Shown here: positions 1-52,700 of the stretch, in pieces
Numbering within the stretch: the stretch's first letter is position 1
Layout: the number at the start of each line of letters is the position of its first letter
Sequence record: OR670491
Length of the DNA: 64,000 bases
Reading direction: 5' to 3' (one strand)
Origin: Escherichia phage vB_EcoM_JNE01
Notes under the pieces: generated by a model
Database searches by the model: none
Told to the model about the DNA's origin: nothing
Seen by the model: the letters and a program-made list of their open reading frames with translations, nothing else
Position numbers and translations under genes: made by a program

Positions 1-3000
1 TTTGTTCATATATTGAATACGGTCATCGTATGCAGTACTGAATTCTTTAGTGATATATGAAATTTCATCTAAAGAAACTGGGCCAATGTCTGGTAATTGA
101 ATATTCTCACTTCTTCCACTACGCATAGGGAATGAGAATTTACCATTTGGACGTGTAACCCAACGTGGGTCTGCACCTTGTTCACCAAAGTAAACGATGT
201 TATTACCGTTTCCATTTGATGTTGCATGAATATCAAAAGAAACTAGTTGTGGTTGTTGTTTAAACTGATCATTGATTAGTTTAAATTGTAGGTTTTTCTT
301 ACCATCTACGTTACCGTAAGTACCGATTTTAAACGCCCATTCTTGAAGTGCTTTATACTCTTCAGTATCGTAAGACTTAGATACGCGTAATACTTTCTCT
401 AGTACTTGATTCGAACCTTTATCATGAATAAAACCTTTATAGAAATCTACACGGTTAGCATCGCTACCAATCATACGTTGTAGATAATCACGGGTTTGAT
501 ATCCAATAAGGTGGTTCGATAGTTCTTGTAATTGAATATCACTAACAGGAGTTTCGCTGTTGTAATACAATTCAAAATCAGTAACTAATTTTTCAAAGGA
601 AGGTAATGTACCAGCTTCTAGAATGATGAATCCAGGAGCTTGTAGTCTACCAGTCCATGAACCAGTAATGTAACCATACATTTTAATTAGTTCTTGTACG
701 GAACCGAATGTTGGTTGATAGATATAATCACCGAAGATAGTCTGGTCATCGAAAATAACAGCATGTTCATATGAGCATAGACTCAAACGGATTAGTGCCA
801 TACGTTTATCCGAATCATCAGTTGTTCTTACAGTGAAGACGTTACCAATGCGAGATGTTTCAATCTCATATTGACGAATACCTTGGTTTTGATCATCAAG
901 TAGTGACCATACACCACCGCTATTCTGTGCAATTGATTGTACTGAACCAAAATCTGCACCAAATTTAGCATTTGCTGAACTTGGAGTACAAGAAATGTAT
1001 TCACCACTCACAAGAGTACTTTGACTCCATGTTACGAAATCTTTAGCAATAGTATTCCAGTCTTGTTGAGCACCAGAATCGTTTACATCTTCAAAAATCC
1101 AACCATGTTCTTTTAGATACTCACCATAACCACAAATGAAAGTATATACTTCCTGATAAGTGTTGAATACTTTACCATATTCAATTTCACTTTCATTTTT
1201 CCATTCATTGTAATGAGCAACATTACGGGTTCCAATTTTTAGTGATACTTTCTTGCCGTTCTTAACTGGTAATTTATATTTGAATTTAGCACCAACCAAA
1301 TCATAACCATCAATTTGGTATGCACTACCAGTCCATGTAATTTTCACTGCACTAATTACTTCGTCACGAATATTACTGGAACGAACTAGTCCGATAGTTT
1401 GGTTTTCTTGTGAAATCAGACCAAAAGATTTTGCTGTAAATGTTAGTTGGTCAGCTTTAGTGAAGCCACCAATTTTATGTCCCACGTTAACGTAAGAAGA
1501 ACGAACAACATCACCATATTTTGTAGTAATATTTTTATTTTGATAAGCCAAATAGTCACTAACAAACATTTGATAGCCAACGGTTCTGGTATTATTTTCA
1601 CCATGAACTACTGTAGCACTGTCAAAGTTAATTCGTTTACGGGTTTCACCATAAAGGAACTGTGGTTGACCAGTATATACAGAATTTAGACTGTTATTAC
1701 GGGTATCCCAGTAATAGTTTGCGAACTGTGCTGGTTTAGCTTTATACAATAGAAGCATTTGGTCGTAAGCGAACATAGCAGTGTTCATGTAAGTGAATTC
1801 CATGTCACCCATGTCACCATATGACCACGGTTCAGCACGATGATTCAATGAACCACTAACTAGACCTAGAACTTCAGGAGCGATGTACTCAATCTCACAA
1901 ATATCGATACCAGTGCTTGTCTTAGAGCCTGTTTTTGTAATTTTGAACGGTTGTACACCGAAACGTTTGTATTTGTCGTATTGACCTTTACGTGCACCAT
2001 ATAGGATTGTACCAGTACTGCTATCACCAATGGTTCCGTCAACTGACCATAGGCCACTTGGAACATAATCACCATTTTCGTTTAGTACTAGAGCTTCATA
2101 TACAGCAACTGTATCACTTTCACGTTCACCAACCTGTACATATGTTGGTTCATACTCTTGGTTCCACCATGATGGACGTTGAGAGAATCCTAGCATTTCC
2201 CACGGATGGGTTGCTGGACGATATGTACCGTACTGATCAGTGTAAATTGCACGCCATGAACCACGAGCAGGAATATCAGATACATGACCATCAACTACAT
2301 AATTGGTTCCAGTATAGTTCCATGTTTTCCAGTTACTTTGGACATATGCATTAGTACTGTTACTAATACCGTTGGTAGCAGTAAAGTTAATGTATCCACG
2401 CAATAGTAGAGTTTGTTTCTCTGCCATCGTATAATCAGTTGTCTGGAAATACGGGGTTGGGAATAAATCTTCACTACTTAGTACTGGTTGATAATCTACA
2501 TCTTTGAATACGTTATCAATACTATCAAAAATACGAGATTCCAATTCAAACACAACATCATCCATTTTATCAACACCGTTAATTGCACGATATGATTTGG
2601 AAATAATACCAGTGTGGCTGATATTATAGAAGCTTGATTTGCTACCTGGATTTAGGTATGTAGCTTTTTGTGGTGCATAAGCTTGTAGAATACCTAAGAA
2701 TTGTGGTGTTGGTGGAACAAATGTACGAATAAAACCAGAAGTGCTTGCTACGTTGTCATAATAGAATGGGAATGAACTATCACGTCCCATGTTAATAGCA
2801 CTAAAAATTGCATCTACAATATTAGAAGCACTATTAGCAACAAAGCCACTTGGATCTTCGTCATACATACGAATCATTTGTGTATTGAATTTGTTAATGA
2901 AGCGGAAGTATTCTGCTTGCATAAACATGATAGCTTCAAACAAATCGATATCTTCGTTTGCAGTGTGAGCCATCAATGGAAGCATTGAAGCTTCGTTTTG

Positions 3001-4998
3001 AATAATGTGAGTACCGACACCATTATCAACCAACCCAGCAGCTAGACGTTCTTCGTAATCGTTGAAGTCATCAGATGAACCACTTGTAATATTCTTTTGA
3101 ATAATATCCTTGAAATGTAGGGTGTACATTCCTTGGTTGATATAAATGATATTACCGTTGTATGGGTTATTTTGTAAGTTGATTGGAATTTCATATGCAC
3201 CAAGATTCTTATCAGGAGTAATAGTACTGCTATAAGTTCTGATTTGAATAACTGAATCTTCATCTAGTGCAACAGTACTATCGATTGTAATACTTTGAAC
3301 TTGATTTTTGGACACGGTTTTGCTGAAGCTGTTGGTAACTACACCATCAACTGTTAGCTCAATAATGTCATCAGAATTATCAAGTACTTTCTGTGCCAAT
3401 TCAAATGTATGATTGTATTTTACACTTTGAACACCGTCGCCAGTGATAACGTGCCAATCAAGATATGTTTCTTTTTCTGCTTTGTAATATTGGTAAGTGC
3501 GATCCACTTCGATTACATAAGCATACATTCCATCAACTGGTGAACGGAAACTTTCTAGATCGTAAACAGTACTGAATACACGATACATGTCAGTACGGGT
3601 AACTTCTAGAGTTTGTTTAACGAACTGTTTGGAATATTCAGCAGAACGAACCCAGTCAGTTTTTAGGTGCATAGAATTGTCTTCACCGATGACGTTAAAA
3701 TAATACAAACCGTCAATCTCAACTTCTTCACCTAAATGATCATATGTATAACGTTCGGACTGTAGAAAGTTCTCATATGTATAATAGTTGTAATCACCTA
3801 ATTCGATGTTATAACCATATACACCATCAGTTGGATAGTTGTAGTTGATTTTAAATCCAAATAGAGAAGAACCTTTGAAAGTACTGGATGGATAAACGGC
3901 ACTATCGTTTAGTTTATTACCATTGCGATCATATAATTGGAATTGTGGGAAAAAGTTAACTGTAGGTTTGGCTTGTGCTTGAACCCAATGTGCACCATCC
4001 CAATACATTGAACTATTACCATAGGTATTACCTTTAGTAATTAGAACCACGTCACCTTTAATTGGTTCACCACTTGGACGGTCTTCAGTTTCTTCTTCAG
4101 GATCTAATGCTAGACCATATACGCGTGTACCATCTTGTAATTTTTTAATGTATACTTTATAAATTCGGTTATTCTCACCACTGTTACCAATACTGGTGAA
4201 GAGAATGCGTTGACCATCTTGTGGGATAATCCCGTCAATACGAATACCGGAGTTCACATCTTTTTGAACCATATCTTCTGGTTTGATGGTATCAGAGTAC
4301 AAATCAACTGTACCACGGAATTTAGTACCGTAGTTTAGAAGTTCGATATCTTTATTGAACTCGATAATAGGTGCTTTAGCACGAACGAAACGCTCATCCT
4401 GCATTAGATCTTGGGTTAGTACTGTACCATCCCCTAATGTTTCACCTAGAGTGTACCAGAAGTTTTGTAGGGACCATGTGTTGCCGTTAGTAGCATTACG
4501 TTCCATTACAACATAGTCTGGAGTTTGAATATTGTATTCGTTTTGTGTATCCCAAAGATATGAACTGTAGTTGTTCATTTTGTTTGGGTTAATAGCAGGT
4601 GTCCATGCGTAAAACTTACCAGCAAATAGGCGACTTTCATTATCAGTTAGTGCACCGTAATGATTCATGTAGCCAACGAGGTCATCATAAAATTGAATTG
4701 AACGAATACTGCGGTCATCATTTCTTGAGACGTAAGCAGTGGATAACTGATACAGTTGACGTGCAACTGTTGATTCAGCTAGGAAGATGTTACCTTCAGC
4801 GGCGGGAGAACCCATATCACCAATATAGCCGTCAACCAATTCGTTTTCAGCCGGATTAAACCATTGTTGAATGACATCATCACTTACCTTCTGAATGTCT
4901 TCTAGACCTTGCATCCATTCAGGTAATCTTTTGATGAAAAGTTTTTTCTGTACTGCTTCAGCCGTTTGTGTAGGTTGAAACTTAAAATTATTAGTCAT
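1..4998 (-). CDS. Very large virion structural protein (baseplate wedge / tail-fibre module), 3-prime truncated by window edge; more than 1660 codons in window
   Basis: Manual translation of minus strand from ATG at 4998-4996 (GGAG about 9 nt upstream) gives MTNNFKFQPTQTAEAVQKK... with no stop over the several hundred codons I translated; absent from ORF track because stop lies outside window; same operon and orientation as gp6/J-like gene. Confidence 0.6.
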   Translation of the reverse strand, partial: MTNNFKFQPTQTAEAVQKKLFIKRLPEWMQGLEDIQKVSDDVIQQWFNPAENELVDGYIGDMGSPAAEGNIFLAESTVARQLYQLSTAYVSRNDDRSIRSIQFYDDLVGYMNHYGALTDNESRLFAGKFYAWTPAINPNKMNNYSSYLWDTQNEYNIQTPDYVVMERNATNGNTWSLQNFWYTLGETLGDGTVLTQDLMQDERFVRAKAPIIEFNKDIELLNYGTKFRGTVDLYSDTIKPEDMVQKDVNSGIRIDGIIPQDGQRILFTSIGNSGENNRIYKVYIKKLQDGTRVYGLALDPEEETEDRPSGEPIKGDVVLITKGNTYGNSSMYWDGAHWVQAQAKPTVNFFPQFQLYDRNGNKLNDSAVYPSSTFKGSSLFGFKINYNYPTDGVYGYNIELGDYNYYTYENFLQSERYTYDHLGEEVEIDGLYYFNVIGEDNSMHLKTDWVRSAEYSKQFVKQTLEVTRTDMYRVFSTVYDLESFRSPVDGMYAYVIEVDRTYQYYKAEKETYLDWHVITGDGVQSVKYNHTFELAQKVLDNSDDIIELTVDGVVTNSFSKTVSKNQVQSITIDSTVALDEDSVIQIRTYSSTITPDKNLGAYEIPINLQNNPYNGNIIYINQGMYTLHFKDIIQKNITSGSSDDFNDYEERLAAGLVDNGVGTHIIQNEASMLPLMAHTANEDIDLFEAIMFMQAEYFRFINKFNTQMIRMYDEDPSGFVANSASNIVDAIFSAINMGRDSSFPFYYDNVASTSGFIRTFVPPTPQFLGILQAYAPQKATYLNPGSKSSFYNISHTGIISKSYRAINGVDKMDDVVFELESRIFDSIDNVFKDVDYQPVLSSEDLFPTPYFQTTDYTMAEKQTLLLRGYINFTATNGISNSTNAYVQSNWKTWNYTGTNYVVDGHVSDIPARGSWRAIYTDQYGTYRPATHPWEMLGFSQRPSWWNQEYEPTYVQVGERESDTVAVYEALVLNENGDYVPSGLWSVDGTIGDSSTGTILYGARKGQYDKYKRFGVQPFKITKTGSKTSTGIDICEIEYIAPEVLGLVSGSLNHRAEPWSYGDMGDMEFTYMNTAMFAYDQMLLLYKAKPAQFANYYWDTRNNSLNSVYTGQPQFLYGETRKRINFDSATVVHGENNTRTVGYQMFVSDYLAYQNKNITTKYGDVVRSSYVNVGHKIGGFTKADQLTFTAKSFGLISQENQTIGLVRSSNIRDEVISAVKITWTGSAYQIDGYDLVGAKFKYKLPVKNGKKVSLKIGTRNVAHYNEWKNESEIEYGKVFNTYQEVYTFICGYGEYLKEHGWIFEDVNDSGAQQDWNTIAKDFVTWSQSTLVSGEYISCTPSSANAKFGADFGSVQSIAQNSGGVWSLLDDQNQGIRQYEIETSRIGNVFTVRTTDDSDKRMALIRLSLCSYEHAVIFDDQTIFGDYIYQPTFGSVQELIKMYGYITGSWTGRLQAPGFIILEAGTLPSFEKLVTDFELYYNSETPVSDIQLQELSNHLIGYQTRDYLQRMIGSDANRVDFYKGFIHDKGSNQVLEKVLRVSKSYDTEEYKALQEWAFKIGTYGNVDGKKNLQFKLINDQFKQQPQLVSFDIHATSNGNGNNIVYFGEQGADPRWVTRPNGKFSFPMRSGRSENIQLPDIGPVSLDEISYITKEFSTAYDDRIQYMNK

Positions 4999-5079: not shown

Positions 5080-8000
5080 TTAAGAACCGATATTAATATT
5101 ACTCTTCGCCAAAGAGTTAACAATTTGTACGTTATCAACGGATGCAGTACTTAGGAAGATTTGGTCAGACCTTGAAGGAATTTCAAAGAGTGAACCAAAT
5201 TTGGAGTTAGGGTTTTTAGCCACAATAACGATAGTACTGATATGTCGTCCCAATTGGGAGTGAATGTAAGTACATAAATCCGTATAATAGAAGCTTTCAC
5301 CGAAATCCCAGTTATCAACGTTAAAGTATTCATTAGTTAATGATATTACATTCTGACGTACTTCATCATCACTCATTGTACTGTTAGGTAATTTGACAAC
5401 TTTAAAGTCTGCTTGATAATCTTCAACAGCACTATTTCCGAATAGTGGTAGATACTCCGCACTATGCCAGATGATACTATCGCTGATTACAATCTTCTCT
5501 TCAACTTCTTTGAAGATATCCTTCAACTCAACAGAGGTTGGTGGCTTAGGTAGGCTACTGGTAGCTCCATTCTTCAACCATACATCAACTTCAGTTTTGT
5601 ATGAGTTGGTTAAAACATACATATCGATTAAGTTCGTTCTACTTGGGTCAATACGGTTATCATCTGGTGCATAGTGCTTCCAATGGAAGTCAACGCTAGT
5701 TCTTGCATCAGTTTTTACTGTGTATTGAGACGTTACATCTATATATCCATAGTAATCTAATTTTTGGTCATCATCAACCGCAGTTCCCATGTTATTTAAT
5801 GCACGATAAAACGCAACTTCAGGTGAAACAGCACTGGCATCATCGCTGGTTGTCATATTGGAAATTAATTGGTTCAAACGGTCGTTATTATTACCAACAG
5901 TTTGTTCAATAAAGTAATATTTACCATCTACTTTAAAAGCAACCAAGAATCCTGAACCTTTACTATACAAACCACTTAGTGTAGTTGAACGAATTTCATT
6001 GTTACGCTGGAATTCATGACGCTTATAAGAGTTAGTTTCTAGAAGTGCCTGATCTACTGTGTAAGCCCATGAAGTATCAAGTAAAGTGAAAGTATCATTT
6101 GGTAATGACAGTACTGAAATGGTAAAATCATCGTTTTCTTGGAAAACTAAGATACCACCGTATTTTAATGCATCTTCACCAGTCCATGTAGGTACGATTT
6201 CATTGAACTTATTGGGTTCCAATGGAATACCATTACTATCAACTGTTTTAGATGTAATTACAACACGAGAGCCATCCAAATACCCATTTTCTTGTTGAAT
6301 TGTATCATAGATTTGGAAATCAATGTTACTAGACAACCCAGCATTGCTGGAACTGGTTGTATTTGAAGAAAGAATCTCAATTTTATCACTTTGAACTGTA
6401 CCACTACTAATATCAGTGATTTTCTTAGATGAAACAAAGTAAAAACGAACCTTATCACCACCAACAAAGATATATTCAACGCCGTTAGCATTAAATTCCC
6501 ATGTTTCAGCAGTATATTTCACATTTACTACAACTTGTGTTGTTACACCATTGTATTGTACGGTTTCTTCATTAGTACTAATCTCGATTGGAACCCATGA
6601 AGTTGTTGCGTTATCATGGATTATAACAAAATCCGTTTTCTTGTCAAGCATTGATGCAATCGCCTGTACTTCTACACTGTTAAAACGTGTACGGTACGGA
6701 AGAATGTAAGATTGTGCTTGCATTGTAGATGAAATCGATGTACTTAGAACATAATAACCATTATCAAGTACGTTTACGATACTAGCCCATACAGTTATAC
6801 CAGTATTTGCAAACTTAATCAAGGTTCCCACTTCATAATTTCCATAAACTGTACCAGATGCACCCAAAATACGACCATATGTGTTGGTTGCGTAGTTGGA
6901 ATTGTATTCAGGTGACCATTTTTGTTGAACTTCGATACCAACAGTGTTAGCTGGATATGCCTGATAACGTTGAATCACAGCATTTTCACCAATTAGTGGC
7001 TGGATGTTATCAACTGCGATACTTGCATTGGTTTTTGTAGTCGGTAAAAGTAATGAAGTGTTGAAAGTATTGTTTTCTTTATACATTGAACCGTCATCAC
7101 TAAACACATCAGTGTTTTGGTACTTACCAGTTGGGTCATTAATGTCAATAAAGCGTGATTGACCACTGTAAATTCGGTTAATTGCTTTTGATTTTAGAAC
7201 AGTGTTACCTAAACTCAATGGAGCAATGTTATAGTCTTCGCCGTTAACGAAACGGTTTTGAGTATAGTACATTTGTGGTGCACGAGCTTTAATTTGTTCA
7301 ATAGTTTCTGCACTTTGTGCTCGGTCTGATTCGTACTGAAGTGTAAATCTAACATCGAGAGTACTGGATTCGTAATTGGATTGTGATTTAGTACGATAAT
7401 TATATTTTACACTCTTATTTTGAATTTCAGAGGTTTTGATATTATATGTTTCACCATTACTAACACGATACCAAACGCGGAATGTACCACGAGGAACTAC
7501 ACCACTACGAGAGTCAGGGAACTTAATAGTAATCTGATCATTATCACGAGTAGTTATTGCAAAGATAGTTTTAAGTTGACGGTCAACGCTGTTGTATGCA
7601 ATACTTTCCATTGAAGGAACTTTAGTCCATTTAGTACGGACAATACCATCTTCGTTAATTTCTTGAACCCAAACGTCAATTTCGTTAATGTTATCTACGT
7701 TAACGTCTTGAATTCGGTTTTCTTCTCTGACATTATACTGATAATCTTGATAAGTCAATGTACCTTGTACAAAATAAACAAAGAAACCAGTGTTTGGTGA
7801 ACTAAAACCATTACCATCGTTCTGATAAACAATGTATTTTTGTTCTTGTGGCTCTGGATGACGTTCTTCAACACCAACTGATGTAATATCAGGGTTAACA
7901 ACTTCAAACGTCATTGATTCACCGTTGACAGTTGCAGAGAATGGCATACTAGGAGCAGTCATTGGTAATGTGTTCATGCGATACAATTGGCGAGATACAC

Positions 8001-8541
8001 CATTGATATCAATACGCTTAACTGGGTTACCAAATTGGTTAGTACTGACGAATGAGCTATTCATTACAAGAATAAAGTTCTCATACCAGTTTGAGTCCAT
8101 TGGGTCATTCCAACGGATGATTTTATCTTTTAATGATTCGTTAAAACTGTTACGTACATCTTGGTTAGTTTTGATTTCAGTTAGTTTTGCTGTTGCACGA
8201 CCTGGATATGAACGGCGTGGAGAATAAGAAATCATTTTAGCAAGTTTTAGTACGGATGCACGACGAGTTGCAGTGTCTAGGAAGTTTTCACGTGTATTAA
8301 GATCCATACGAAACGCTAAGTTCTGCCCCAGCATAGATATTGTATCTAGAATAAAAATAAACTGGTCGTTCTCAATCCAGTCGTTGAAAGAATCTGGATA
8401 TGTAGTACGGAGATAGTCTATCATACTTTGACGAATGGTATCGTAATCAAATGCCGTGAGATTAATTTTATAGAAACTTTCATACACTTGAGTCCAATCC
8501 TCACCACTATATAAATTAGACTGTCTTTTTTGTTGTGACAT
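5080..8541 (-). CDS. Baseplate wedge protein, T4 gp6 / P2 gpJ-like (extended, 1153 aa)
   Basis: N-terminal region (FDYD...RRASVLKLAKMISYSPRR) resembles gp6/J-family N-domain pattern; position directly after gp25/W-like gene as in conserved W-J-I baseplate order. Confidence 0.5.
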   Translation of the reverse strand: MSQQKRQSNLYSGEDWTQVYESFYKINLTAFDYDTIRQSMIDYLRTTYPDSFNDWIENDQFIFILDTISMLGQNLAFRMDLNTRENFLDTATRRASVLKLAKMISYSPRRSYPGRATAKLTEIKTNQDVRNSFNESLKDKIIRWNDPMDSNWYENFILVMNSSFVSTNQFGNPVKRIDINGVSRQLYRMNTLPMTAPSMPFSATVNGESMTFEVVNPDITSVGVEERHPEPQEQKYIVYQNDGNGFSSPNTGFFVYFVQGTLTYQDYQYNVREENRIQDVNVDNINEIDVWVQEINEDGIVRTKWTKVPSMESIAYNSVDRQLKTIFAITTRDNDQITIKFPDSRSGVVPRGTFRVWYRVSNGETYNIKTSEIQNKSVKYNYRTKSQSNYESSTLDVRFTLQYESDRAQSAETIEQIKARAPQMYYTQNRFVNGEDYNIAPLSLGNTVLKSKAINRIYSGQSRFIDINDPTGKYQNTDVFSDDGSMYKENNTFNTSLLLPTTKTNASIAVDNIQPLIGENAVIQRYQAYPANTVGIEVQQKWSPEYNSNYATNTYGRILGASGTVYGNYEVGTLIKFANTGITVWASIVNVLDNGYYVLSTSISSTMQAQSYILPYRTRFNSVEVQAIASMLDKKTDFVIIHDNATTSWVPIEISTNEETVQYNGVTTQVVVNVKYTAETWEFNANGVEYIFVGGDKVRFYFVSSKKITDISSGTVQSDKIEILSSNTTSSSNAGLSSNIDFQIYDTIQQENGYLDGSRVVITSKTVDSNGIPLEPNKFNEIVPTWTGEDALKYGGILVFQENDDFTISVLSLPNDTFTLLDTSWAYTVDQALLETNSYKRHEFQRNNEIRSTTLSGLYSKGSGFLVAFKVDGKYYFIEQTVGNNNDRLNQLISNMTTSDDASAVSPEVAFYRALNNMGTAVDDDQKLDYYGYIDVTSQYTVKTDARTSVDFHWKHYAPDDNRIDPSRTNLIDMYVLTNSYKTEVDVWLKNGATSSLPKPPTSVELKDIFKEVEEKIVISDSIIWHSAEYLPLFGNSAVEDYQADFKVVKLPNSTMSDDEVRQNVISLTNEYFNVDNWDFGESFYYTDLCTYIHSQLGRHISTIVIVAKNPNSKFGSLFEIPSRSDQIFLSTASVDNVQIVNSLAKSNINIGS

Positions 8542-8545
8542 TGTA

Positions 8546-9310
8546 TTAATCCTTTAATATTATGTTAAAATTATCATAAAAGTACCTTTTTAGTACTGAG
8601 ATATGATCCTCATTGTATTTTATACGAAGCAAGTTAATATCATGTTCAGTACAGTACGCGTTTTTAATTTTATCATTGTGTTGAGTTTGTTTTAGTGATT
8701 CATCTCCACCCCAATGTTCTGAACATTGAAAATGCTGTTCACCATCATATTCAATACACAAATTCAAATCTTCAATATAAAAATCAAATGGTAAAGTGAA
8801 TACGTTTCGACAATCAGAAAAACGCTTTTCTTTTACATACTTCATAAAAGATAACATTTTTTCTATATCTGTTACAGCTTTTGATTGAGTTGATTCCATC
8901 ATACACTGCTCACAACCATGCCTACTAGCCAAATGATTATCAGGTCTTTGTAAAAATGACCCATGTATGGGGCATATTATGGATATATGTGTTTTGTTGT
9001 TAATATACTCCGCAGTATTGTAATCAAATTTGTTTTTAAACTTCAAATTAGCTTTTTCACGAAAATTTATAAAGTTTTTTGGACTTTTTTGACGGTTTGC
9101 ATTATATTCTTTTGAACATTTCATGCAACCTTTACCACTAGTATGATCGTTTGGTCTTTGAAGAAAAAAACCATGCTTTTCACACCCAATCCATACCTTT
9201 GTTTTTGCATTATGGTATTTAACCATACTATAATCATATCTAATTCCATGAACTCGTATTGCATTGGTCACAAATTTGTCTTTCGTTGATCTTGTGGTTG
9301 CATATTTCAT
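8546..9310 (-). CDS. Free-standing homing-endonuclease-like protein: two Zn-ribbon modules plus Vsr/DUF559-like PD-(D/E)xK nuclease domain
   Basis: Repeated C-x-x-H-G-x-F-x(7-9)-H-x(4-5)-G-C-x-x-C modules (CEKHGFF...GCMKC; CPIHGSF...GCEQC); C-terminal FDFYIED...IEYDGEQH motif typical of DUF559/Vsr-like endonuclease fold; inserted between gp25-like and gp6-like genes. Confidence 0.5.
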   Translation of the reverse strand: MKYATTRSTKDKFVTNAIRVHGIRYDYSMVKYHNAKTKVWIGCEKHGFFLQRPNDHTSGKGCMKCSKEYNANRQKSPKNFINFREKANLKFKNKFDYNTAEYINNKTHISIICPIHGSFLQRPDNHLASRHGCEQCMMESTQSKAVTDIEKMLSFMKYVKEKRFSDCRNVFTLPFDFYIEDLNLCIEYDGEQHFQCSEHWGGDESLKQTQHNDKIKNAYCTEHDINLLRIKYNEDHISVLKRYFYDNFNIILKD

Positions 9311-9354
9311 ATATCACTCCATGAATTATATAGAAATATTTATCCAAAAAGAAA

Positions 9355-9374
9355 AGCACTCATGAGAGTGCTTT
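9355..9374. terminator. Hairpin with flanking A/T runs between gp25-like gene and endonuclease-like gene (better terminator in minus orientation)
   Basis: GCACTC-atga-GAGTGC stem-loop; minus-strand reading is followed by TTTTCTTTTT. Confidence 0.4.
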
Positions 9375-9379
9375 TGATA

Positions 9380-9775
9380 TTATACAGAAGATACTGAATA
9401 AGTAGCCATTCTATTATTACTTCTAGCATCAAACACAATAGTTAGTTCTTCCAATGTTTCCAGAACCACATAACCAAGTAAAATGCTCATCTGATATCCA
9501 TACTCAATTCTGGAAATTTGAAGTTCTTTTAATTCAAGACGTGGATCTAATCCAATTATTCTTCGGGCATCAGCTTCAAGAAGGTTGATTGTATTGTAAC
9601 CATCCAGTTCGAATAGTAAATCCCATGCAATAAACCCGTAGTCAGCATCAAATGCCCTTTCGCCTTTCTTTGTATTAAAATGATTAATAAGGTCTTGACG
9701 TACCAATTCACTATCGTATAATGTTTGTGTTTTCCCTACTACTGGAGTAGAGAATCCTTTAAAAACTATAGCCAT
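9380..9775 (-). CDS. Baseplate wedge protein gp25 / gpW-like
   Basis: RAFDADYGFIAWDLLFE region parallels T4 gp25 RPFDPEFGCDLSDQLFE; size 131 aa; genomic context. Confidence 0.65.
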   Translation of the reverse strand: MAIVFKGFSTPVVGKTQTLYDSELVRQDLINHFNTKKGERAFDADYGFIAWDLLFELDGYNTINLLEADARRIIGLDPRLELKELQISRIEYGYQMSILLGYVVLETLEELTIVFDARSNNRMATYSVSSV

Positions 9776-9788
9776 AGTGATTCCTTAA

Positions 9789-10277
9789 TTAGACGGACTC
9801 GACAATACGTGCCATTTGTTCCGCTCTGGATGTGGTTTGCTTATACCATGTACTATCACGCATTTCTTTACCAGCAGTTTTATAATCACCACGACCGAGA
9901 GCAGCCATAGCTTTTTTGAAGTTTAAAACTTTTGATTTGCCCATTTGGAAAACCATCAACCACAATACACGTTGTACTTTAACTGGTGCGGTCATACCGA
10001 ATTGGTCATAAATTGATTTAGCGTCATTGTACGCGGATTGAGCATCTTTAATTAATAGAGCATCAGCTTCTGCTTCGGTTAGACCAGATTTGAAATTTTC
10101 ACCAGGACGAACCAAGTGACCATAACCAATTGTATCTAAACCGAGGCTGTCTTTATACACCCAAAATTTGTCATTCTTAAAATAACCCAATTTCTTTTGA
10201 TAAGCAATTGTACCTTCAAATTCTTTAACTTCTTTGAAAAATTGCTCGTCTGTGTTTTTAATTTCCCATTTACTCAT
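9789..10277 (-). CDS. T4-type lysozyme (GH24 muramidase), probable endolysin
   Basis: Motifs TIGYGHL, MVFQMG, WYKQT..RAE match T4 lysozyme catalytic core; 162 aa; own late-type promoter and RBS AGAGGA upstream. Confidence 0.85.
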   Translation of the reverse strand: MSKWEIKNTDEQFFKEVKEFEGTIAYQKKLGYFKNDKFWVYKDSLGLDTIGYGHLVRPGENFKSGLTEAEADALLIKDAQSAYNDAKSIYDQFGMTAPVKVQRVLWLMVFQMGKSKVLNFKKAMAALGRGDYKTAGKEMRDSTWYKQTTSRAEQMARIVESV

Positions 10278-10315: not shown

Positions 10316-12979
10316 TTATTGGCAAGCCTCAATTCGACGTGCCATTAATTCTGCACGACGTGTGGTTTGTCTGTACCAAGCAGAGTTACGGATTTGTGCA
10401 GCAGCTTGCTTGTAATCACCTTTAGCTAGACAACTAAGCATAGTTTTAAATTTAAGAACACCACCTTTACCCATCTGGAATACCATTTGACATAGAACTT
10501 GCTGTGCCATATATGGCGTTTTCATGTTATAAGATGCATAAATTGATTTAGCATCATTAATCGCTTTAGTACTGTCCCTTACAAGCATATCGTTTGCTTC
10601 TTGTTCAGTAATGCCGCCGCTGAAATTTTCACCGCTGATAATCAAGTGTCCATAACCTATAGTTGGGAATCCACGACTATCTATATATCTCCAGAATTTA
10701 CCATTACGGAAATATCCTTTCGCTGCTTGATATTGTTGAGTACCTTCATATTCTTTCAATTCAGATGTAAATTGAGCATCACCAGGTACAACTTTCCAAT
10801 CAATTGCCGTTTTATCAACGGTTCCAACATTATATGATTCTTGCTGTGATGCAGCAGGAGCAGAAGTAGTTCGTTGTGTTCTTCTACGTCTAGGAACATG
10901 ACGAGAACCACGTTGTGAATAACCCGTACCGATAGTTTTGATTTTAGTTGATACAACCAATTCATCACTATCAACTGAAGGTTGAACTACTGCTTTTGGT
11001 GCGGCTTGGTTTGTTGCCTGACCTGCAATTAAGGTTTTATTTGCTGCATCAGAACCAGTACCAGTTTGTGAAGCATAGAATAACCCTGGGTCAACAGAAC
11101 CACTGAAACCGTACACACTTGATGATGTAACACGAATCTCAAACATAATGACACCATTTGCTGTACCGATTTTTTGTCCTTTTTGTACAACATCTTTATT
11201 CATCAAATCAGATTTGATATTAAAGAATACAGATTTGTATCCAGACTTATGCTGAATCAACAGTCCACCATTGGTTGCTGCGACAACACCGCCATCAGGG
11301 GCAACAATATCACCTCTGCATTGGATTTCCCAACCACTACTATCAACTTTACCACCACCTGCGACTGGTACGTTTTTACCCCAGTAACCATTCTGACGAA
11401 TAGTACCGCTACATGGCATAAACATATGCAAACCTTCATATGTAATCGTATATCCGGTCATACCAGGATCAGAAGTCATTAAATCTTCGGATTGAACTGA
11501 TTCTGTTTCTTGTGTATAGTTAATAAATTGTACTGCTTCTGTATCTTGTGCTTCTGCTAGTTCAGGAGCTACGTCATTAGCTGGTTGTGGCTGTACTGGT
11601 GCAGTAGTTGATGATCTACCACCACCTTGATATGGAGGCTCAACAGTACTTCCATGATTTTCTGCATCAACCCAGTTAGAAATGTTATGAATATGGTCAT
11701 TTAATCCAGCAGAAGGTGTTTTAAAATCAGGAGCAGAGAACATTGCAGTACCAGTATTACCTGCACTATCAACAGTTAAGTTCTGACCACCACCACTGAT
11801 GTTTACAGATGAACCACCTATTACGTTTGCACTGCTTGAACCTTTAATAGATGCAGATGAGCCAGCAGTGATATCAGTACTGCTACCACTTTGTAAACGT
11901 AGAGAAGCGGCTGTTACTAGACGTAAATCTGCACCAGAGTTCAATACAATTTGACCACCTACTTTTGCATCCAAATTACCAATTAAATCTAATTTAGTTT
12001 TACCACCAATTCGGGCATTTAGGTCTTGTCCACTCTCTATATTATAAGAACGTCCTGCAACCATGTTAATATCTTGACCAGCACGAATGTTAATGTTCTT
12101 ATCACAGTGCATGTCAATATCACCGTCACCTGAGAATCTAATACGTGCAGTACCGTCACGGTTAATCAATAGAACGTCTCCAGTGGCTTCAGAAAGCAAC
12201 AATTGAGCACCACTGCGTGTCTTTATGACTACACCTTCATTCTTACGAGAACCAACTCTGGTGTCGTTTACGGGGTTATTAAATTGTGTATCCTGGTAAC
12301 CATCTGGATCATCATCCCAAGATGGAGCAGTTAATTCTTCTTCAGTGTATCCATCATCAATAATAAAACTATTCCCGCGTGGTGATGACATACCATAGAC
12401 AGTACTGGTAGTTTGTCGAGTACTGCTGCGGTTTGCTACGCCTGCTTCTTCATCATATAGCAAGTTTTGCTTTTTAAGACCTGCGATGATAGGCACGTTT
12501 GCATATTTTTCTTGTGTAGTTGATGAAAGTGTGTTACGGTCATAGTCAGTTACTGGTAATGGCATATCAGTACCACCATAGTTACTTACTTCGGTAGCCA
12601 TACCAGGAACCATAGTGTTCATTCGTTGATCATAAACACACCCAATCCAGTATGCTTGGAATGTACGAGCCTGTGCAAATATAACAACCACAGTACAACC
12701 AACATCTGGAGGTACAGCCCAAAAACCATACCCTTTAGGGAACTGACCATAAGCTTCCGCACTTGGAATGCCTGGTGTTTTCCCTGCGAATGGAGACATG
12801 TAAGATGCTTCAATCCATGACTCCTTCGAGTTCTTGTCACTTTGTGAACCCTGAATCCATACTTTCAGTTTTCCTGATTTGGTAGGGTCACGGTTATCCA
12901 TTACTGTTGCCAGTTGTGGATAAGAAGGGTCGAAACGACCCAACTGTTGTTGTGCATACTTCTTACTAGTATCTGCCAT
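10316..12979 (-). CDS. Baseplate central spike gp5-like protein with beta-helix, degenerate M23/LytM-like region and C-terminal T4-type lysozyme domain
   Basis: N-terminus DNRDPTKSGKLKVWIQG resembles gp5 OB domain (DPTLKGRVKVRVHG); Gly/Ser-rich beta-helix-like repeats mid-protein; C-terminal 160 aa carry TIGYGHL / MVFQMG / WYRQT lysozyme motifs and are paralogous to the adjacent 162-aa lysozyme. Confidence 0.75.
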   Translation of the reverse strand: MADTSKKYAQQQLGRFDPSYPQLATVMDNRDPTKSGKLKVWIQGSQSDKNSKESWIEASYMSPFAGKTPGIPSAEAYGQFPKGYGFWAVPPDVGCTVVVIFAQARTFQAYWIGCVYDQRMNTMVPGMATEVSNYGGTDMPLPVTDYDRNTLSSTTQEKYANVPIIAGLKKQNLLYDEEAGVANRSSTRQTTSTVYGMSSPRGNSFIIDDGYTEEELTAPSWDDDPDGYQDTQFNNPVNDTRVGSRKNEGVVIKTRSGAQLLLSEATGDVLLINRDGTARIRFSGDGDIDMHCDKNINIRAGQDINMVAGRSYNIESGQDLNARIGGKTKLDLIGNLDAKVGGQIVLNSGADLRLVTAASLRLQSGSSTDITAGSSASIKGSSSANVIGGSSVNISGGGQNLTVDSAGNTGTAMFSAPDFKTPSAGLNDHIHNISNWVDAENHGSTVEPPYQGGGRSSTTAPVQPQPANDVAPELAEAQDTEAVQFINYTQETESVQSEDLMTSDPGMTGYTITYEGLHMFMPCSGTIRQNGYWGKNVPVAGGGKVDSSGWEIQCRGDIVAPDGGVVAATNGGLLIQHKSGYKSVFFNIKSDLMNKDVVQKGQKIGTANGVIMFEIRVTSSSVYGFSGSVDPGLFYASQTGTGSDAANKTLIAGQATNQAAPKAVVQPSVDSDELVVSTKIKTIGTGYSQRGSRHVPRRRRTQRTTSAPAASQQESYNVGTVDKTAIDWKVVPGDAQFTSELKEYEGTQQYQAAKGYFRNGKFWRYIDSRGFPTIGYGHLIISGENFSGGITEQEANDMLVRDSTKAINDAKSIYASYNMKTPYMAQQVLCQMVFQMGKGGVLKFKTMLSCLAKGDYKQAAAQIRNSAWYRQTTRRAELMARRIEACQ

Positions 12980-31745: not shown

Positions 31746-31789
31746 TTGTAAACGATTTAAAAGATTTAATCAAGAATTTAAAAACAATA

Positions 31790-31816
31790 GGGACTCTTCG
31801 GAGTCCCTTTTCTTTT
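31790..31816 (+). terminator. Rho-independent terminator after major capsid gene
   Basis: GGGACTC-TTCG-GAGTCCC followed by TTTTCTTTT. Confidence 0.75.
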
Positions 31817-31889
31817 GTAAATACACTTGCACTACATACGTAATCGTGATATTATATTTTTATGGTAAACACAAGGATTTTCTTAAATT

Positions 31890-32888
31890 ATGGCTAGTAA
31901 ATTTAATGAACAATATTATGTTGATAAAATTGAAGGTATCATCAAACGTAATAACTTGAACATGAAATTCATAAAAATCATAAACTTCAAAAATGCTAAA
32001 AGTAATTTTTGTTATACATGTTGGGATTGTAAGTCTTCAGTACTGGAAACTAATATAGATAATTTTTCAACCCGCAAAAAATGTCAACACTGTGGTATTA
32101 TGAAACAACAGCACGGTACTAGTGTTCCAAAAACTGAAAGTCAATATAGACATGAATGTTTAAAACGTATTAAGCAAGAGAAAAAACCGTGGGAATATAT
32201 TAAAACCATTAGCTATAATGACAAGAAAAACTCTAGAGTGGAATTCCACTGTAAAAAGCATGAGCGTAATTTCATTGTTACATTTGATGATTTCTTGGGT
32301 AACAAAAGTGGTTGCGTGGACTGTGGAATAGAACGCACTAGTGAGTCCAAAAGAAAAGACCTCAAAACAATGAAATCCCAGTTGATAGGAATTCATGGTG
32401 AAAAGTACACCTATGATGATTTTCAATATGATGAAAGTTATGATTATCACAGTACTGAATGTGTATTTGGATGTCCCATACACAAAGACGTGAAGATTTA
32501 TAAAACTGTACCAAACTTTAGAAAAACTGATAGAGAACATTGTCCTGTGTGCAACGAACGTGAAGGAACAATGCGTGAACCATCAACACTATACGTCCAA
32601 CGTATAACACACCCAAGTAAAGGTGTATTTTATAAGTTAGGTGTAACTAACGATATAAGCCGTAGGATTAGTCAACAAAAACATTATGCAAACACTGAAC
32701 ATGAAGTATTGTTGATTGAAGATTTTGAAACTCGTAGAGAAGCACAAGACTTAGAACAGAAAATAAAAGGTACTATAACTAACAAGGTAGTTGATAAAGA
32801 AGATTTCCCTGATGGATACACTGAAACTTTCAATGAATCTGATTTAGACTTAGTACTATCCATGATTAAAGAATGGAAAGCTATGTAA
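31890..32888 (+). CDS. Homing-endonuclease-like protein: three Zn-ribbon modules plus C-terminal T5orf172/GIY-YIG-like domain
   Basis: Zn-ribbon modules like those in 8546-9310 gene (FHCKKHE...GCVDCG; CPIHKD...HCPVCN); C-terminal LYVQRI...GVFYKLGVTNDISRR...EHEVLLIEDF pattern of T5orf172 (GIY-YIG-like) domain. Confidence 0.5.
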   Translation: MASKFNEQYYVDKIEGIIKRNNLNMKFIKIINFKNAKSNFCYTCWDCKSSVLETNIDNFSTRKKCQHCGIMKQQHGTSVPKTESQYRHECLKRIKQEKKPWEYIKTISYNDKKNSRVEFHCKKHERNFIVTFDDFLGNKSGCVDCGIERTSESKRKDLKTMKSQLIGIHGEKYTYDDFQYDESYDYHSTECVFGCPIHKDVKIYKTVPNFRKTDREHCPVCNEREGTMREPSTLYVQRITHPSKGVFYKLGVTNDISRRISQQKHYANTEHEVLLIEDFETRREAQDLEQKIKGTITNKVVDKEDFPDGYTETFNESDLDLVLSMIKEWKAM

Positions 32889-32912
32889 CTAAACTAAAAG
32901 GAGTTGACAAGG

Positions 32913-33263
32913 ATGTTAACTGTATACTTATTTCGCAAAGAAGAGTACTTAATGAGTCAGTACTCAAACATTGAGATTAATGTTCCATACGGCACGTATG
33001 TTGCTTATGATGAAGAAAGTGAAACATTGCATTACTATGATGACAAATTAGATTATAGTACTGAAAAGTTTATTGAAGATGTACTAACCTGTAGTACTGA
33101 AGAAATGGTGTATGAAATCTATCTCCAGAAGTACAGAGAACGTATGTCCAAGGTACATGCAGACGCACCAGTACTGAACATTAACCAGACTCCCTCCGAA
33201 TTCCAACCTTCCAACCCATTCCAGCGTTTAATAGATGCTGGGGTAAATTTCCGAATTAGTTAG
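32913..33263 (+). CDS. Hypothetical protein
   Basis: ORF with RBS AAAGGAG upstream of ATG 32913 (track uses TTG at 32904). Confidence 0.45.
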   Translation: MLTVYLFRKEEYLMSQYSNIEINVPYGTYVAYDEESETLHYYDDKLDYSTEKFIEDVLTCSTEEMVYEIYLQKYRERMSKVHADAPVLNINQTPSEFQPSNPFQRLIDAGVNFRIS

Positions 33264-33301
33264 ATGATAAATATCTTCATAATAAAATGGAGATATTTTC
33301 T

Positions 33302-33610
33302 ATGTCACAAATATGTTATGTAATAACTAATGCTGCTTGGCCTGAGTATGTAAAGATTGGATTTACATCCAAATCAGAGATGACAGAAAGATTACGAACA
33401 TACCAAACTGCGACCCCATTCCGTGATTTTGAAGTGTATCATGAGGTTAAGTTCCCTGATGCTAGGGTTGCAGAGAAAGAGATTCATAAAAGACTAAAGC
33501 AGATGAATGCGACACGTCAGCCTAATACTGAGTGGTTCAAGATGCCTAAGAAGCTGGCAGCTAATATAGTTGACTCTGTACTTGACGATATGGAGAACGA
33601 TTTACTTTAG
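33302..33610 (+). CDS. Stand-alone T5orf172/GIY-YIG-like domain protein
   Basis: CYVITNAAWPEYVKIGFTSKS...RLRTY...FEVYHEV...EKEIHKRLK...EWFKM matches T5orf172 pattern; RBS GGAG. Confidence 0.5.
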   Translation: MSQICYVITNAAWPEYVKIGFTSKSEMTERLRTYQTATPFRDFEVYHEVKFPDARVAEKEIHKRLKQMNATRQPNTEWFKMPKKLAANIVDSVLDDMENDLL

Positions 33611-52653: not shown

Positions 52654-52663
52654 ACTAATAATA

Positions 52664-52688
52664 AGGACGCACTTCGCGTCCTTTTTCT
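52664..52688 (+). terminator. Rho-independent terminator
   Basis: AGGACGC-acttc-GCGTCCT followed by TTTTCT. Confidence 0.7.
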
Positions 52689-52700
52689 ATGTAGGTACAT

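What the first reader, a model, noticed from the sequence alone, without database searches (positions are those of the whole stretch)
8546..9310. Homing-endonuclease-like gene inserted inside the baseplate operon, sharing Zn-ribbon modules with a second endonuclease-like gene
This gene sits between the gp25-like and gp6-like genes, which are normally adjacent, and is set off by a hairpin. It combines two unusual Zn-ribbon modules with a DUF559/Vsr-like nuclease motif (IEYDGEQH). Zn-ribbon modules of the same spacing occur in the 31890-32888 gene, where they are fused to a different catalytic domain (T5orf172/GIY-YIG-like). That implies a shared DNA-binding cassette shuffled between nuclease types.
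Basis: partly seen in the sequence, partly recalled or inferred. Interest (0 to 1): 0.5.

Follow-up and report, generated by a model that had tools for sequence, protein, structure and literature searches.

The report
Homing endonuclease gene in baseplate operon
This is a selfish "homing endonuclease" gene wedged between two baseplate genes of a giant E. coli phage; it is an ordinary kind of mobile element, but relatives preserve an unusually complete record of its arrival, decay and replacement.

Summary
ORF 8546-9310 (minus strand, 254 aa) lies between the gp25-like and gp6-like baseplate genes of a 121Q/PBECO4-type (Asteriusvirus) jumbo phage. It encodes two CxxH...CxxC zinc modules (DUF723/DUF4379 class) and a C-terminal nuclease containing IEYDGEQH.

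The gene is sporadic. About 31 Asteriusvirus records lack it, including the 97%-identical Turkey5. Only 121Q, JP4 and some metagenomic phages carry it, always at this site. TH47 carries a GIY-YIG-type gene in the same slot.

Divergence from the nearest gene-less relatives is confined to a roughly 50-100 nt patch of gp6 beside the gene. dN/dS is about 0.1.

The zinc array is homologous to that of the T5orf172 gene at 31890-32888 (hhalign 94.6%, E 7e-8), but at 14% identity, so this is not a recent swap. Such shuffling is already published.

New details: the gene took over gp6's translation start and supplies a new one. "Empty" sites in Asteriusvirus and RaK2 hold relics of its 3' end.

Verdict: a new member of a known kind, of modest interest.

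The parts
8546..9310 (-). Free-standing homing endonuclease gene (254 aa): two zinc modules plus a Vsr-like nuclease
9107..9277 (-). Zinc module 1 (residues 12-68; C43, H46, C62, C65)
   Evidence: Module HMM domain 13-68. DUF4379 treble-clef hit 34-67. Ligands invariant.
8894..9067 (-). Zinc module 2 (residues 82-139; C113, H116, C133, C136)
   Evidence: DUF723 hit 85-136, E 3e-6. Module HMM domain 83-139. Ligands invariant.
8549..8884 (-). Vsr-like (PD-(D/E)xK superfamily, EDxHD/Hef-type) nuclease domain, residues 143-254. Invariant D176, E187, D189, H193, D213, K216. IEYDGEQH lies at 8732-8755.
8549..8601 (-). Last ~18 codons of the gene (...SVLKRYFYDNFNIILKD). The final codons AAG GAT TAA supply the Shine-Dalgarno sequence (AAGGA, 8550-8554) for gp6, whose ATG follows 4 nt after the stop. 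This is the part that survives as a relic in 'empty' relatives.
   Evidence: Sequence. The same ...LK[DE]* / AAGGA(A/T)TAA ending occurs in all gp25|gp6-site homologs. Relic alignments.
9311..9327 (-). Leader and Shine-Dalgarno of the endonuclease gene (TTCATGGAGTGATAT-ATG). It resembles the gp6 leader of pristine relatives (TATATGAGGTGTATAAAAC-ATG), so it is the captured gp6 translation start. TH47's GIY-YIG gene uses the same leader.
9328..9343 (-). Conserved ATAAATA-containing box (late-promoter-like), present in occupied, relic and pristine junctions
   Evidence: ATAAATA is the proposed late promoter of Rak2-like phages (PMC5259590). Function inferred.
   Evidence: z -3.5. Conserved in all relatives with or without the insert.
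8442..8541 (-). First 100 nt of gp6: a patch of divergence from the nearest gene-less relative. Nt 1-56 (8486-8541) are identical in all five Asteriusvirus-type occupied genomes. Candidate co-conversion tract or cleavage-immunity allele.
9380..9775 (-). gp25-like baseplate wedge gene (upstream flank)
   Evidence: Pfam GPW_gp25 E 2e-7. phrog_43.
5080..8541 (-). gp6-like baseplate wedge gene (downstream flank; its expression now depends on the insert's 3' end)
   Evidence: phrog_10646 E 0. Annotated T4 gp6-like in 121Q.
31890..32888 (+). Second free-standing endonuclease gene (332 aa): three zinc modules (about 20-70, 108-147, 167-223) plus a T5orf172 domain (235-329). Also sporadic among relatives.
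   Evidence: Pfam T5orf172 26.2 bits vs cut-off 20. phrog_681 E 2e-40. Module HMM. hhalign. Distribution.

Best explanation
ORF 8546-9310 is a free-standing homing endonuclease gene.

**The protein.** Two treble-clef-type zinc modules (DUF723/DUF4379/CapR class) are inferred to read a long DNA target. A C-terminal Vsr-like nuclease, the same fold as I-Bth0305I of the 'EDxHD' family, is inferred to cut it.

**The insertion (shown).** The gene sits exactly between gp6's late-promoter-like box and ribosome-binding site and gp6's ATG. It uses the captured gp6 leader for its own translation. Its last codons (AAG GAT TAA) form a new Shine-Dalgarno sequence 4 nt upstream of gp6, so baseplate expression is preserved.

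**Spread (inferred).** In a mixed infection the enzyme cuts the gene-less allele at or near the gp25|gp6 junction, most likely at the very conserved start of gp6. Double-strand-break repair then copies the gene, plus about 50-100 nt of gp6, from the carrier genome.

**History of the site (shown by comparison).** Across Rak2-like jumbo phages the site is found in several states:
- never invaded (GAP32, CBB, Munch, Yen9-04);
- occupied by an intact gene under purifying selection (this window, 121Q, JP4, four metagenomic phages);
- deleted down to a 3' relic (RaK2 strongly supported; most Asteriusvirus moderately supported);
- re-occupied by a GIY-YIG-type endonuclease gene (TH47).
For: - **Families.** DUF723 above its cut-off; phrog_559, phrog_9084 and phrog_681 endonuclease families.
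- **Catalytic residues.** D176, E187, D189, H193, D213 and K216 are invariant in 30 homologs.
- **Sporadic distribution at one site.** The junction is contiguous in about 31 Asteriusvirus records and about 24 more distant ones. It is occupied in 121Q and JP4 and in L028, L029, L033 and L035 at 87/66/51/49% amino-acid identity. TH47 carries a phrog_314 homing endonuclease in the same slot with the same leader.
- **Local conversion patches on two backbones.** Window vs Turkey5 has 22 mismatches in gp6 nt 1-100, then about 1-3%. JP4 vs PBECO4 has 9 mismatches, then about 0. On the gp25 side the counts are 2 and 0.
- **Selection.** dN/dS is 0.08-0.12, against 0.03-0.05 for gp25 and gp6.
- **Relics.** RaK2 scores 104 against a null maximum of 48. 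Asteriusvirus 'empties' score 32, reached by 0-2 of 500 shuffles, at the correct 3'-end position. Pristine junctions have none.
- **Not an intron, not a defence gene.** No group I intron and no defence-system match.
Against: - Nuclease activity, target site and mobility are untested.
- Synonymous divergence of the gene between lineages (dS 0.8-1.2) is about the same as that of the flanking genes (about 1.4). This fits long vertical residence with losses as well as it fits recurrent homing.
- The direction of the conversion patches (gain in the window lineage or loss in the Turkey5 lineage) cannot be determined.
- The glutamate of the EDxHD motif is not at the position used by most family members (V146 here, with E150 one helical turn away).
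- There is no sequence-level hit to any solved structure.
- The short Asteriusvirus relic is only moderately significant, and is not significant against the window's own gene (p about 0.06-0.2).
- The one 'frameshifted' copy (L030) has only homopolymer indels, which may be sequencing errors.
Confidence: 0.8

Rival explanations
1. An old resident gene, no longer mobile. It entered the ancestor of Asteriusvirus/RaK2-like phages once, has been inherited vertically, and is being lost by deletion. The nuclease is kept because it benefits the phage, for example by excluding a competitor's markers or degrading rival genomes, rather than because it homes.
For: - dS of the gene (0.8-1.2) is close to dS of the flanking gp25 and gp6 (1.4) between the window and 121Q lineages.
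- Relics in 'empty' sites imply the occupied state is older than most empty sites.
- Strong purifying selection.
Against: - Two nearly identical backbone pairs (window/Turkey5 at about 99%, JP4/PBECO4 at about 100% in the flanks) differ by presence of the gene plus a 50-100 nt patch. This implies recent local gene conversion centred on the gene.
- A different endonuclease gene occupies the same slot in TH47.
- Paralogs occupy other conserved junctions.
- These are hallmarks of active homing sites. The two views also overlap: marker exclusion is a consequence of homing.
Confidence: 0.13
2. A domesticated DNA-binding regulator. The zinc array binds the late baseplate promoter/leader region, as the CapR repressor derived from homing endonuclease modules does, and the nuclease domain is inactive or vestigial.
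For: - CapR, a repressor, evolved from the same class of zinc modules (PMC10448857).
- The gene sits on the gp6 leader and is translationally linked to gp6.
Against: - Catalytic-type residues D176, E187, D189, H193, D213 and K216 are invariant.
- The nuclease domain is under purifying selection (dN/dS 0.13-0.15).
- Most relatives make baseplates without the gene.
Confidence: 0.04
3. An HNH endonuclease, as annotated in RefSeq and PHROGs (for example a terminase-associated or intron-associated HNH protein).
Against: - No Pfam HNH match at E <= 1.
- The fold search returns Vsr, I-Bth0305I and DUF559-type nucleases, not beta-beta-alpha-metal folds.
- No intron RNA nearby.
- The gene is intergenic.
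Confidence: 0.01

Closest known systems
I-Bth0305I and the 'EDxHD' homing endonuclease family (Taylor et al. 2011, PMC3239194; PDB 3R3P)
   Same: - N-terminal DNA-binding region plus a C-terminal Vsr-like nuclease.
- Conserved Asp...His...Asp, with the same 17-residue Asp-His spacing.
- Encoded by a phage.
   Different: - I-Bth0305I is intron-encoded (recA) and binds DNA through NUMOD/helix-turn-helix motifs. Here the gene is free-standing and uses two Cys/His zinc modules.
- No detectable sequence similarity.
- The motif's glutamate is displaced.
Hef-type free-standing homing endonucleases of T4-related phages (Sandegren et al. 2005; e.g. F-LimIII of Dickeya phage LIMEstone1, PMC3296691)
   Same: - Free-standing, Vsr/DUF559-like nuclease.
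- Inserted upstream of a baseplate wedge gene in LIMEstone1.
- Both proteins hit phrog_559 over overlapping profile positions.
- The catalytic strand motif aligns (LPFDFYIEDLNLCIEYDG / LQLDIYCPEHKLAIEFNG).
   Different: - F-LimIII is 547 aa with a DUF7487 N-terminal region and no DUF723 modules.
- Pairwise BLASTP is not significant (E 0.26).
T5orf172 homing endonucleases with repeated CapR/DUF723/DUF4379 zinc-finger arrays (Barth, Dunham & Seed 2023, PMC10448857)
   Same: - The same class of repeated 'beads-on-a-string' zinc modules.
- The same habit of sitting beside essential structural genes and at boundaries of genetic exchange.
- Module number varies (two here, three in most homologs).
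- The window's own gene at 31890-32888 is of this type.
   Different: The catalytic domain here is Vsr-like, not T5orf172/GIY-YIG-like. That study did not cover Vsr-type partners.
T4 seg/mob free-standing endonucleases and 'intronless homing' (Edgell et al. 2010, PMC2988022)
   Same: - Intergenic, promoter-less cassette embedded in an existing transcription unit.
- Sporadic among relatives.
- Flanking co-conversion.
- Different endonuclease families replace each other at one site (as segH/hef replace mobC/mobE).
   Different: - Different nuclease fold and DNA-binding modules.
- Here the insertion point coincides with the start codon of the downstream gene, and the element supplies that gene's ribosome-binding site.

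Membership tests
Free-standing homing endonuclease gene (operational definition) | Intergenic, between genes that are adjacent in relatives; not inside an intron or intein | tested here: met
   gp25 and gp6 are adjacent (67-101 nt apart) in about 55 related records. No Rfam intron.
Free-standing homing endonuclease gene (operational definition) | Sporadic presence or absence among close relatives at one fixed site | tested here: met
   Absent in Turkey5 (97% identical) and about 30 other records. Present in 121Q, JP4, L028, L029, L033 and L035 at the same site.
Free-standing homing endonuclease gene (operational definition) | Co-conversion of flanking sequence with the gene | tested here: inconclusive
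   Divergence patches of 50-100 nt in gp6 next to the gene occur on two backbones, and a 56-nt allele is shared by all five Asteriusvirus-type carriers. However, one gene-less phage (phAPEC6) has the allele, and the direction of exchange is unknown.
Free-standing homing endonuclease gene (operational definition) | Site-specific cleavage of the gene-less allele and super-Mendelian inheritance | not testable with these tools
   Requires an in vitro cleavage assay and phage crosses.
EDxHD / Vsr-like homing endonucleases (I-Bth0305I) | Vsr-like nuclease fold | tested here: met
EDxHD / Vsr-like homing endonucleases (I-Bth0305I) | Conserved catalytic Asp, His, Asp (D196, H213, D222 in I-Bth0305I) | tested here: met
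   D176, H193 and D213 are invariant in 30 homologs. The D-H spacing of 17 matches. Assignment is by order and spacing, not by inspected superposition.
EDxHD / Vsr-like homing endonucleases (I-Bth0305I) | Conserved upstream Glu (E170) | tested here: inconclusive
   Most homologs have S-K-G-E. This lineage has S-K-A-V-T-D-I-E, with E150 one helical turn later.
EDxHD / Vsr-like homing endonucleases (I-Bth0305I) | N-terminal NUMOD / helix-turn-helix DNA-binding region | tested here: not met
   The N-terminal region consists of two Cys/His zinc modules (DUF723/DUF4379).
HNH endonucleases (database annotation) | HNH motif / beta-beta-alpha-metal fold | tested here: not met
   No HNH Pfam hit at E <= 1. 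Fold hits are PD-(D/E)xK / Vsr-type.
DUF723 (PF05265) zinc-module family | Score above Pfam gathering cut-off | tested here: met
   27.4 bits vs 20.9, residues 85-136. Precomputed PF05265 on essentially all homologs.
T5orf172 (PF10544) endonucleases: the second gene, 31890-32888 | Score above Pfam gathering cut-off | tested here: met
   26.2 bits vs 20, residues 235-329. phrog_681 E 2e-40.
Shared zinc-array between the two genes | Statistically supported, colinear homology of the N-terminal arrays | tested here: met
   hhalign Prob 94.6%, E 7e-8, 196 columns, ending at the start of the nuclease domains. Module HMM E 5e-4, the only hit among 526 frames. BLASTP E 0.001, in register. Identity is only 14-21%.

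The most novel reading that the evidence does not exclude
The gp25|gp6 junction of Rak2-like jumbo phages may be a natural series covering the whole homing endonuclease life cycle for an uncharacterised enzyme architecture (zinc-finger array plus Vsr-like nuclease).

- The element would have hijacked gp6's translation start.
- Its own C-terminal codons would have become gp6's ribosome-binding site.
- That 3' fragment would be retained as a functional relic after the gene is deleted, so most 'empty' Asteriusvirus genomes are ex-carriers.
- The invariant 56-nt gp6 allele linked to the gene would be the cleavage-immunity form of the target.
Probability: 0.4. Interest if true: 0.45.

Novelty: new member of a known kind. 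Interest (0 to 1): 0.3.

Why it matters
- **Annotation.** It corrects a widespread annotation error. Proteins of this type (relatives detectable in about 1000 phage records) are labelled 'HNH endonuclease' in the records examined (121Q, JP4, GAP32, the phrog_559 name) or left as hypothetical, although this one has a Vsr-type fold.
- **An experimental entry point.** The zinc-array plus Vsr-nuclease architecture has no biochemically studied member that I could find in the library searched. This locus provides a defined candidate target (the gp6 start region) and natural occupied, relic and pristine alleles to test it on.
- **Minimising harm to the host phage.** The gene is inserted at a start codon, captures that gene's ribosome-binding site, and donates a new one.
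- **Comparative genomics.** 'Empty' sites used as negative controls may themselves be remnants of an earlier invasion.
- **Context.** None of this changes the general picture of phage homing endonucleases.

Tried and rejected
- **Sequence searches against solved structures.** Both the single sequence and the 30-sequence profile found nothing meaningful. Only fold comparison revealed the Vsr relationship.
- **NCBIfam.** No hits.
- **IMG/VR scan with gp25.** It returned only 121Q and distant phages, so it did not help the presence/absence survey.
- **Paralogs in the window.** tblastn found none.
- **A shared 'cassette leader'.** The leader motif occurs only once more in the window, with 3 mismatches, in front of the UvsX-like gene. 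That is an ordinary strong ribosome-binding site.
- **The ATAAATATTTCTATAT box.** The full 16-mer is not clearly over-represented in the window (7 matches vs 3.3 expected). The promoter assignment rests on the literature and on conservation.
- **RNA structure.** I looked for a structure spanning the gene's stop and the gp6 start that might explain the invariant 56 nt. None is significant (z -0.9 and +0.4).
- **Group I intron association.** Rejected: no Rfam hit.
- **Defence-system role.** No PADLOC hit.
- **L030 as a decaying copy.** Downgraded. Its three indels all lie in homopolymer runs and may be sequencing errors.
- **The Sandegren et al. 2005 Hef paper.** It could not be read. Hef was represented instead by LIMEstone1 F-LimIII.

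Full report
**1. What is in the sequence**

- The window is part of a 121Q/PBECO4-type (Asteriusvirus) E. coli jumbo phage. The closest record is phage Turkey5, at 97% identity.
- On the minus strand the gene order is: hub/lysozyme protein (10316-12979), lysozyme (9789-10277), gp25-like (9380-9775), the ORF in question (8546-9310, 254 aa), then gp6-like (5080-8541).
- The motif IEYDGEQH is residues 186-193.
- The protein has two CxxH...CxxC modules at residues 43-65 and 113-136.
- A 10-bp hairpin followed by a T-run lies just after gp25 (9352-9375).

**2. What the protein is**

- *Profile hits.* Pfam finds DUF723 above its cut-off, DUF4379 ('probable treble clef zinc finger') and a weak DUF2726. 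PHROGs places the protein in endonuclease families 559, 9084 and 681.
- *Homologs.* 588 homologs were found, nearly all carrying DUF723/DUF4379. JGI names some of them 'very-short-patch-repair endonuclease / Zn ribbon protein'.
- *Conservation.* In an alignment of 30 homologs, all eight zinc ligands are invariant, as are D176, E187, D189, H193, D213 and K216. Most homologs have three zinc modules; this one has two.
- *Structure.* The AlphaFold model is confident (pLDDT 91.7). Each module is a beta-hairpin carrying CxxH, followed by a helix that starts with CxxC.
  - RAP-domain proteins and other PD-(D/E)xK nucleases.
- *Catalytic spacing.* The Asp-to-His spacing (D176 to H193, 17 residues) equals that of I-Bth0305I (D196 to H213).
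- *Conclusion.* The RefSeq and PHROG name 'HNH endonuclease' is wrong. No HNH profile matches. The nuclease is of the Vsr / 'EDxHD' / Hef kind.
- *Link to Hef.* A Hef-like endonuclease of phage LIMEstone1, which also lies upstream of a baseplate wedge gene, falls in the same PHROG. It has a different N-terminal region and no significant pairwise similarity.

**3. Is it an insert?**

- *Survey.* I used the PBECO4 junction as query. About 31 Asteriusvirus records and about 24 records of more distant Rak2-like phages (GAP32, CBB, Munch, 7t3, Yersinia, Erwinia and Serratia phages) have gp25 and gp6 directly adjacent. Only 121Q (two records) and JP4 carry this ORF.
- *Metagenomic carriers.* Four homologs, at 87, 66, 51 and 49% amino-acid identity, sit in the same gp25 -> ORF -> gp6 position.
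- *A paralogous lineage.* Related genes occupy a different conserved junction (recombinase/hypothetical | DnaQ-like exonuclease) in GAP32 and UE-S1. That junction is empty in the window.
- *TH47.* The same slot holds a 235-aa GIY-YIG-type protein instead (phrog_314 'homing endonuclease', E 2e-14; weak Pfam GIY-YIG and I-TevI DNA-binding hits). It is preceded by the same leader, ATTCATGGAGTGATGTATG.
- *Exclusions.* There is no intron RNA nearby and no defence-system match.

**4. Anatomy of the insertion**

- *Pristine junctions* read: gp25 stop, terminator hairpin, GATAAATATTTCTATAT..., GAGGTGTATAAAAC, then the gp6 ATG.
- *Occupied junctions* keep the hairpin and the ATAAATA box. That box is the proposed late promoter of Rak2-like phages (PMC5259590).
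- A similar leader (CATGGAGTGATAT) then runs into the endonuclease ATG.
- The endonuclease ORF ends ...ILKD*, encoded as AAG GAT TAA. The gp6 ATG follows 4 nt later. The last codons therefore form the Shine-Dalgarno sequence for gp6.
- All gp25|gp6-site homologs share this ...LK[DE]* / AAGGA(A/T)TAA ending. Paralogs at the other site end earlier.
- I infer that the element captured gp6's translation start and supplies a substitute.
It is independent of the insert.

**5. Evidence for movement**

Mismatch counts against the nearest gene-less relative:

| Comparison | gp6 nt 1-100 | Rest of gp6 flank | gp25 side |
|---|---|---|---|
| Window vs Turkey5 | 22 | about 1-3% | 2 in the first 50 nt |
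| JP4 vs PBECO4 | 9 | almost 0 | 0 in the first 600 nt (1 in 1200) |

- Two different backbones thus show a small conversion patch centred on the gene.
- All five Asteriusvirus-type carriers (window, 121Q, JP4, L028, L030) have identical gp6 nt 1-56. Their endonuclease genes differ by 13-19%. Gene-less genomes vary at about 14 of those 56 positions.
- This may be a co-converted tract or a cleavage-immunity allele. It remains unexplained, for two reasons:
  - one gene-less phage (phAPEC6) has the allele;
  - a distant carrier (L035) does not.
- No RNA structure accounts for it.
- The gene is under purifying selection: dN/dS is 0.08-0.12 overall, 0.06 in the zinc part and 0.13-0.15 in the nuclease part.
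- Its synonymous divergence between lineages (0.8-1.2) is close to that of the flanking genes (1.4). Long residence with losses therefore cannot be excluded.

**6. Relics**

- *RaK2.* The 248-nt spacer contains a clear remnant of the gene's last ~135 nt. It reads ...RIRYDENHISVLIQHFKNTFNIILKE* (score 104 against a shuffle maximum of 48).
- *Asteriusvirus 'empties'.* The 45 nt upstream of gp6 (CCAGTACTGAACTAGTACTTTACTGA...AAAGGAATAA) align to the same 3' region of the gene. In frame they read PVLN*YFTD-LKE* against SVLKKYFKNKFNIDLKE*.
  - Zero to two of 500 shuffles reach the observed score against the L035 gene.
  - The match is not significant against the window's own gene.
- The 'EDHIxVLKxxF' helix also occurs in paralogs at the other site. 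It therefore belongs to the protein, not to the locus.
- Most 'empty' Asteriusvirus junctions are thus probably deletion derivatives of an occupied site. Truly pristine sites occur in Mimasvirus, Eneladusvirus and Munch-like phages.
- One full-length copy (L030) looks frameshifted, but all three indels are in homopolymer runs and may be sequencing errors.

**7. The second gene and the 'shared cassette'**

- *Architecture.* ORF 31890-32888 (332 aa) has a T5orf172 domain (above cut-off) preceded by three zinc modules.
- *Homology tests.*
  - Direct BLASTP to the first protein is weak but in register (E 0.001).
  - A module HMM built from the first family finds this ORF as the only other hit among 526 frames (E 5e-4).
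  - hhalign aligns the three-module arrays colinearly over 196 columns and stops where the two different nuclease domains begin (Prob 94.6%, E 7e-8, 14% identity).
The relationship is ancient, however, and the principle is published: Barth et al. 2023 describe repeated, shuffled CapR/DUF723/DUF4379 modules on T5orf172 endonucleases.
- *This gene is also mobile-looking.* Only TH47 and SHEFM2K share it. Turkey5 has a different four-module T5orf172-type gene there (22% identity). PBECO4 has none.

**8. Verdict**

- This is a free-standing homing endonuclease gene of the Vsr-like kind with a zinc-module DNA-binding array, inserted at the start of gp6.
- It is a new member of a known kind.
- The extra value lies in:
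  - the corrected fold assignment;
  - the way the element rewired gp6's translation start;
  - the series of pristine, occupied, relic and replaced alleles.
- Activity, target and mobility are inferred, not shown.

Noticed in passing
window 31746-33610; L043 (Turkey5) 1161-2381; L044 (PBECO4): The junction after the major capsid gene is a second endonuclease hot spot. The window's T5orf172 gene is shared only with TH47 and SHEFM2K. The nearest relative, Turkey5, has a different 406-aa CapR+DUF4379+DUF723+MUG113 gene there (22% identity). PBECO4 has none. A small T5orf172-only ORF (33287-33610) is kept in all of them.
   Followed up: partly
window 52654-52700; L032 (UE-S1) 1983-2702; L031 (GAP32) 1812-2720: A paralog of the zinc-array/Vsr endonuclease occupies the junction between the UvsX-adjacent ORF and the DnaQ-like exonuclease in UE-S1 and GAP32. 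It is inserted just upstream of the same terminator. This junction is empty in the window (47-nt spacer).
   Followed up: partly
L041 (RaK2) spacer between ORF072 and ORF071, about 553-802: The 248-nt gp25-gp6 spacer of Klebsiella phage RaK2 contains a remnant of the endonuclease gene's last ~135 nt (...RIRYDENHISVLIQHFKNTFNIILKE*). It still ends in the AAGGAATAA that serves as gp6's ribosome-binding site.
   Followed up: yes
L003 (TH47) 2246-2953, minus strand: TH47 carries a 235-aa GIY-YIG-type homing endonuclease gene in the same gp25|gp6 slot. It uses the same leader and start (ATTCATGGAGTGATGTATGAAA) as the zinc-array/Vsr gene. This suggests replacement of one endonuclease ORF by another within the same expression context.
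   Followed up: partly
L024 (phAPEC6) 1301-1400: phAPEC6 lacks the endonuclease gene (relic-type junction). Yet it has the exact 56-nt gp6 5' allele otherwise seen only in carrier genomes. It could be a resistant target or a product of recombination between carrier and relic alleles.
   Followed up: no
L030 (GCA_050939295.1 contig) 2813-3549: A 97.5%-identical copy of the JP4-type gene is split into 63- and 182-aa ORFs by +1, +1 and -2 indels. All three lie in A/T homopolymer runs, so this may be sequencing error rather than decay. The record is filed as an Escherichia coli assembly although the contig is phage-like.
   Followed up: partly
window 9789-10277 and 10316-12979: The free-standing 162-aa lysozyme is clearly paralogous to the C-terminal ~160 residues of the 887-aa hub/tail-lysozyme protein encoded just upstream. 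This is a tandem duplication of the lysozyme module.
   Followed up: no
window 8580-8601 and relic sites (e.g. L001 about 2255-2285): A small hairpin-forming motif (CAGTACT-N5/6-(A/G)GTACT) is conserved both in the 3' coding end of the endonuclease gene and in the relic upstream of gp6 in gene-less phages. It might have a role in gp6 mRNA, but the folding statistics were not significant.
   Followed up: partly
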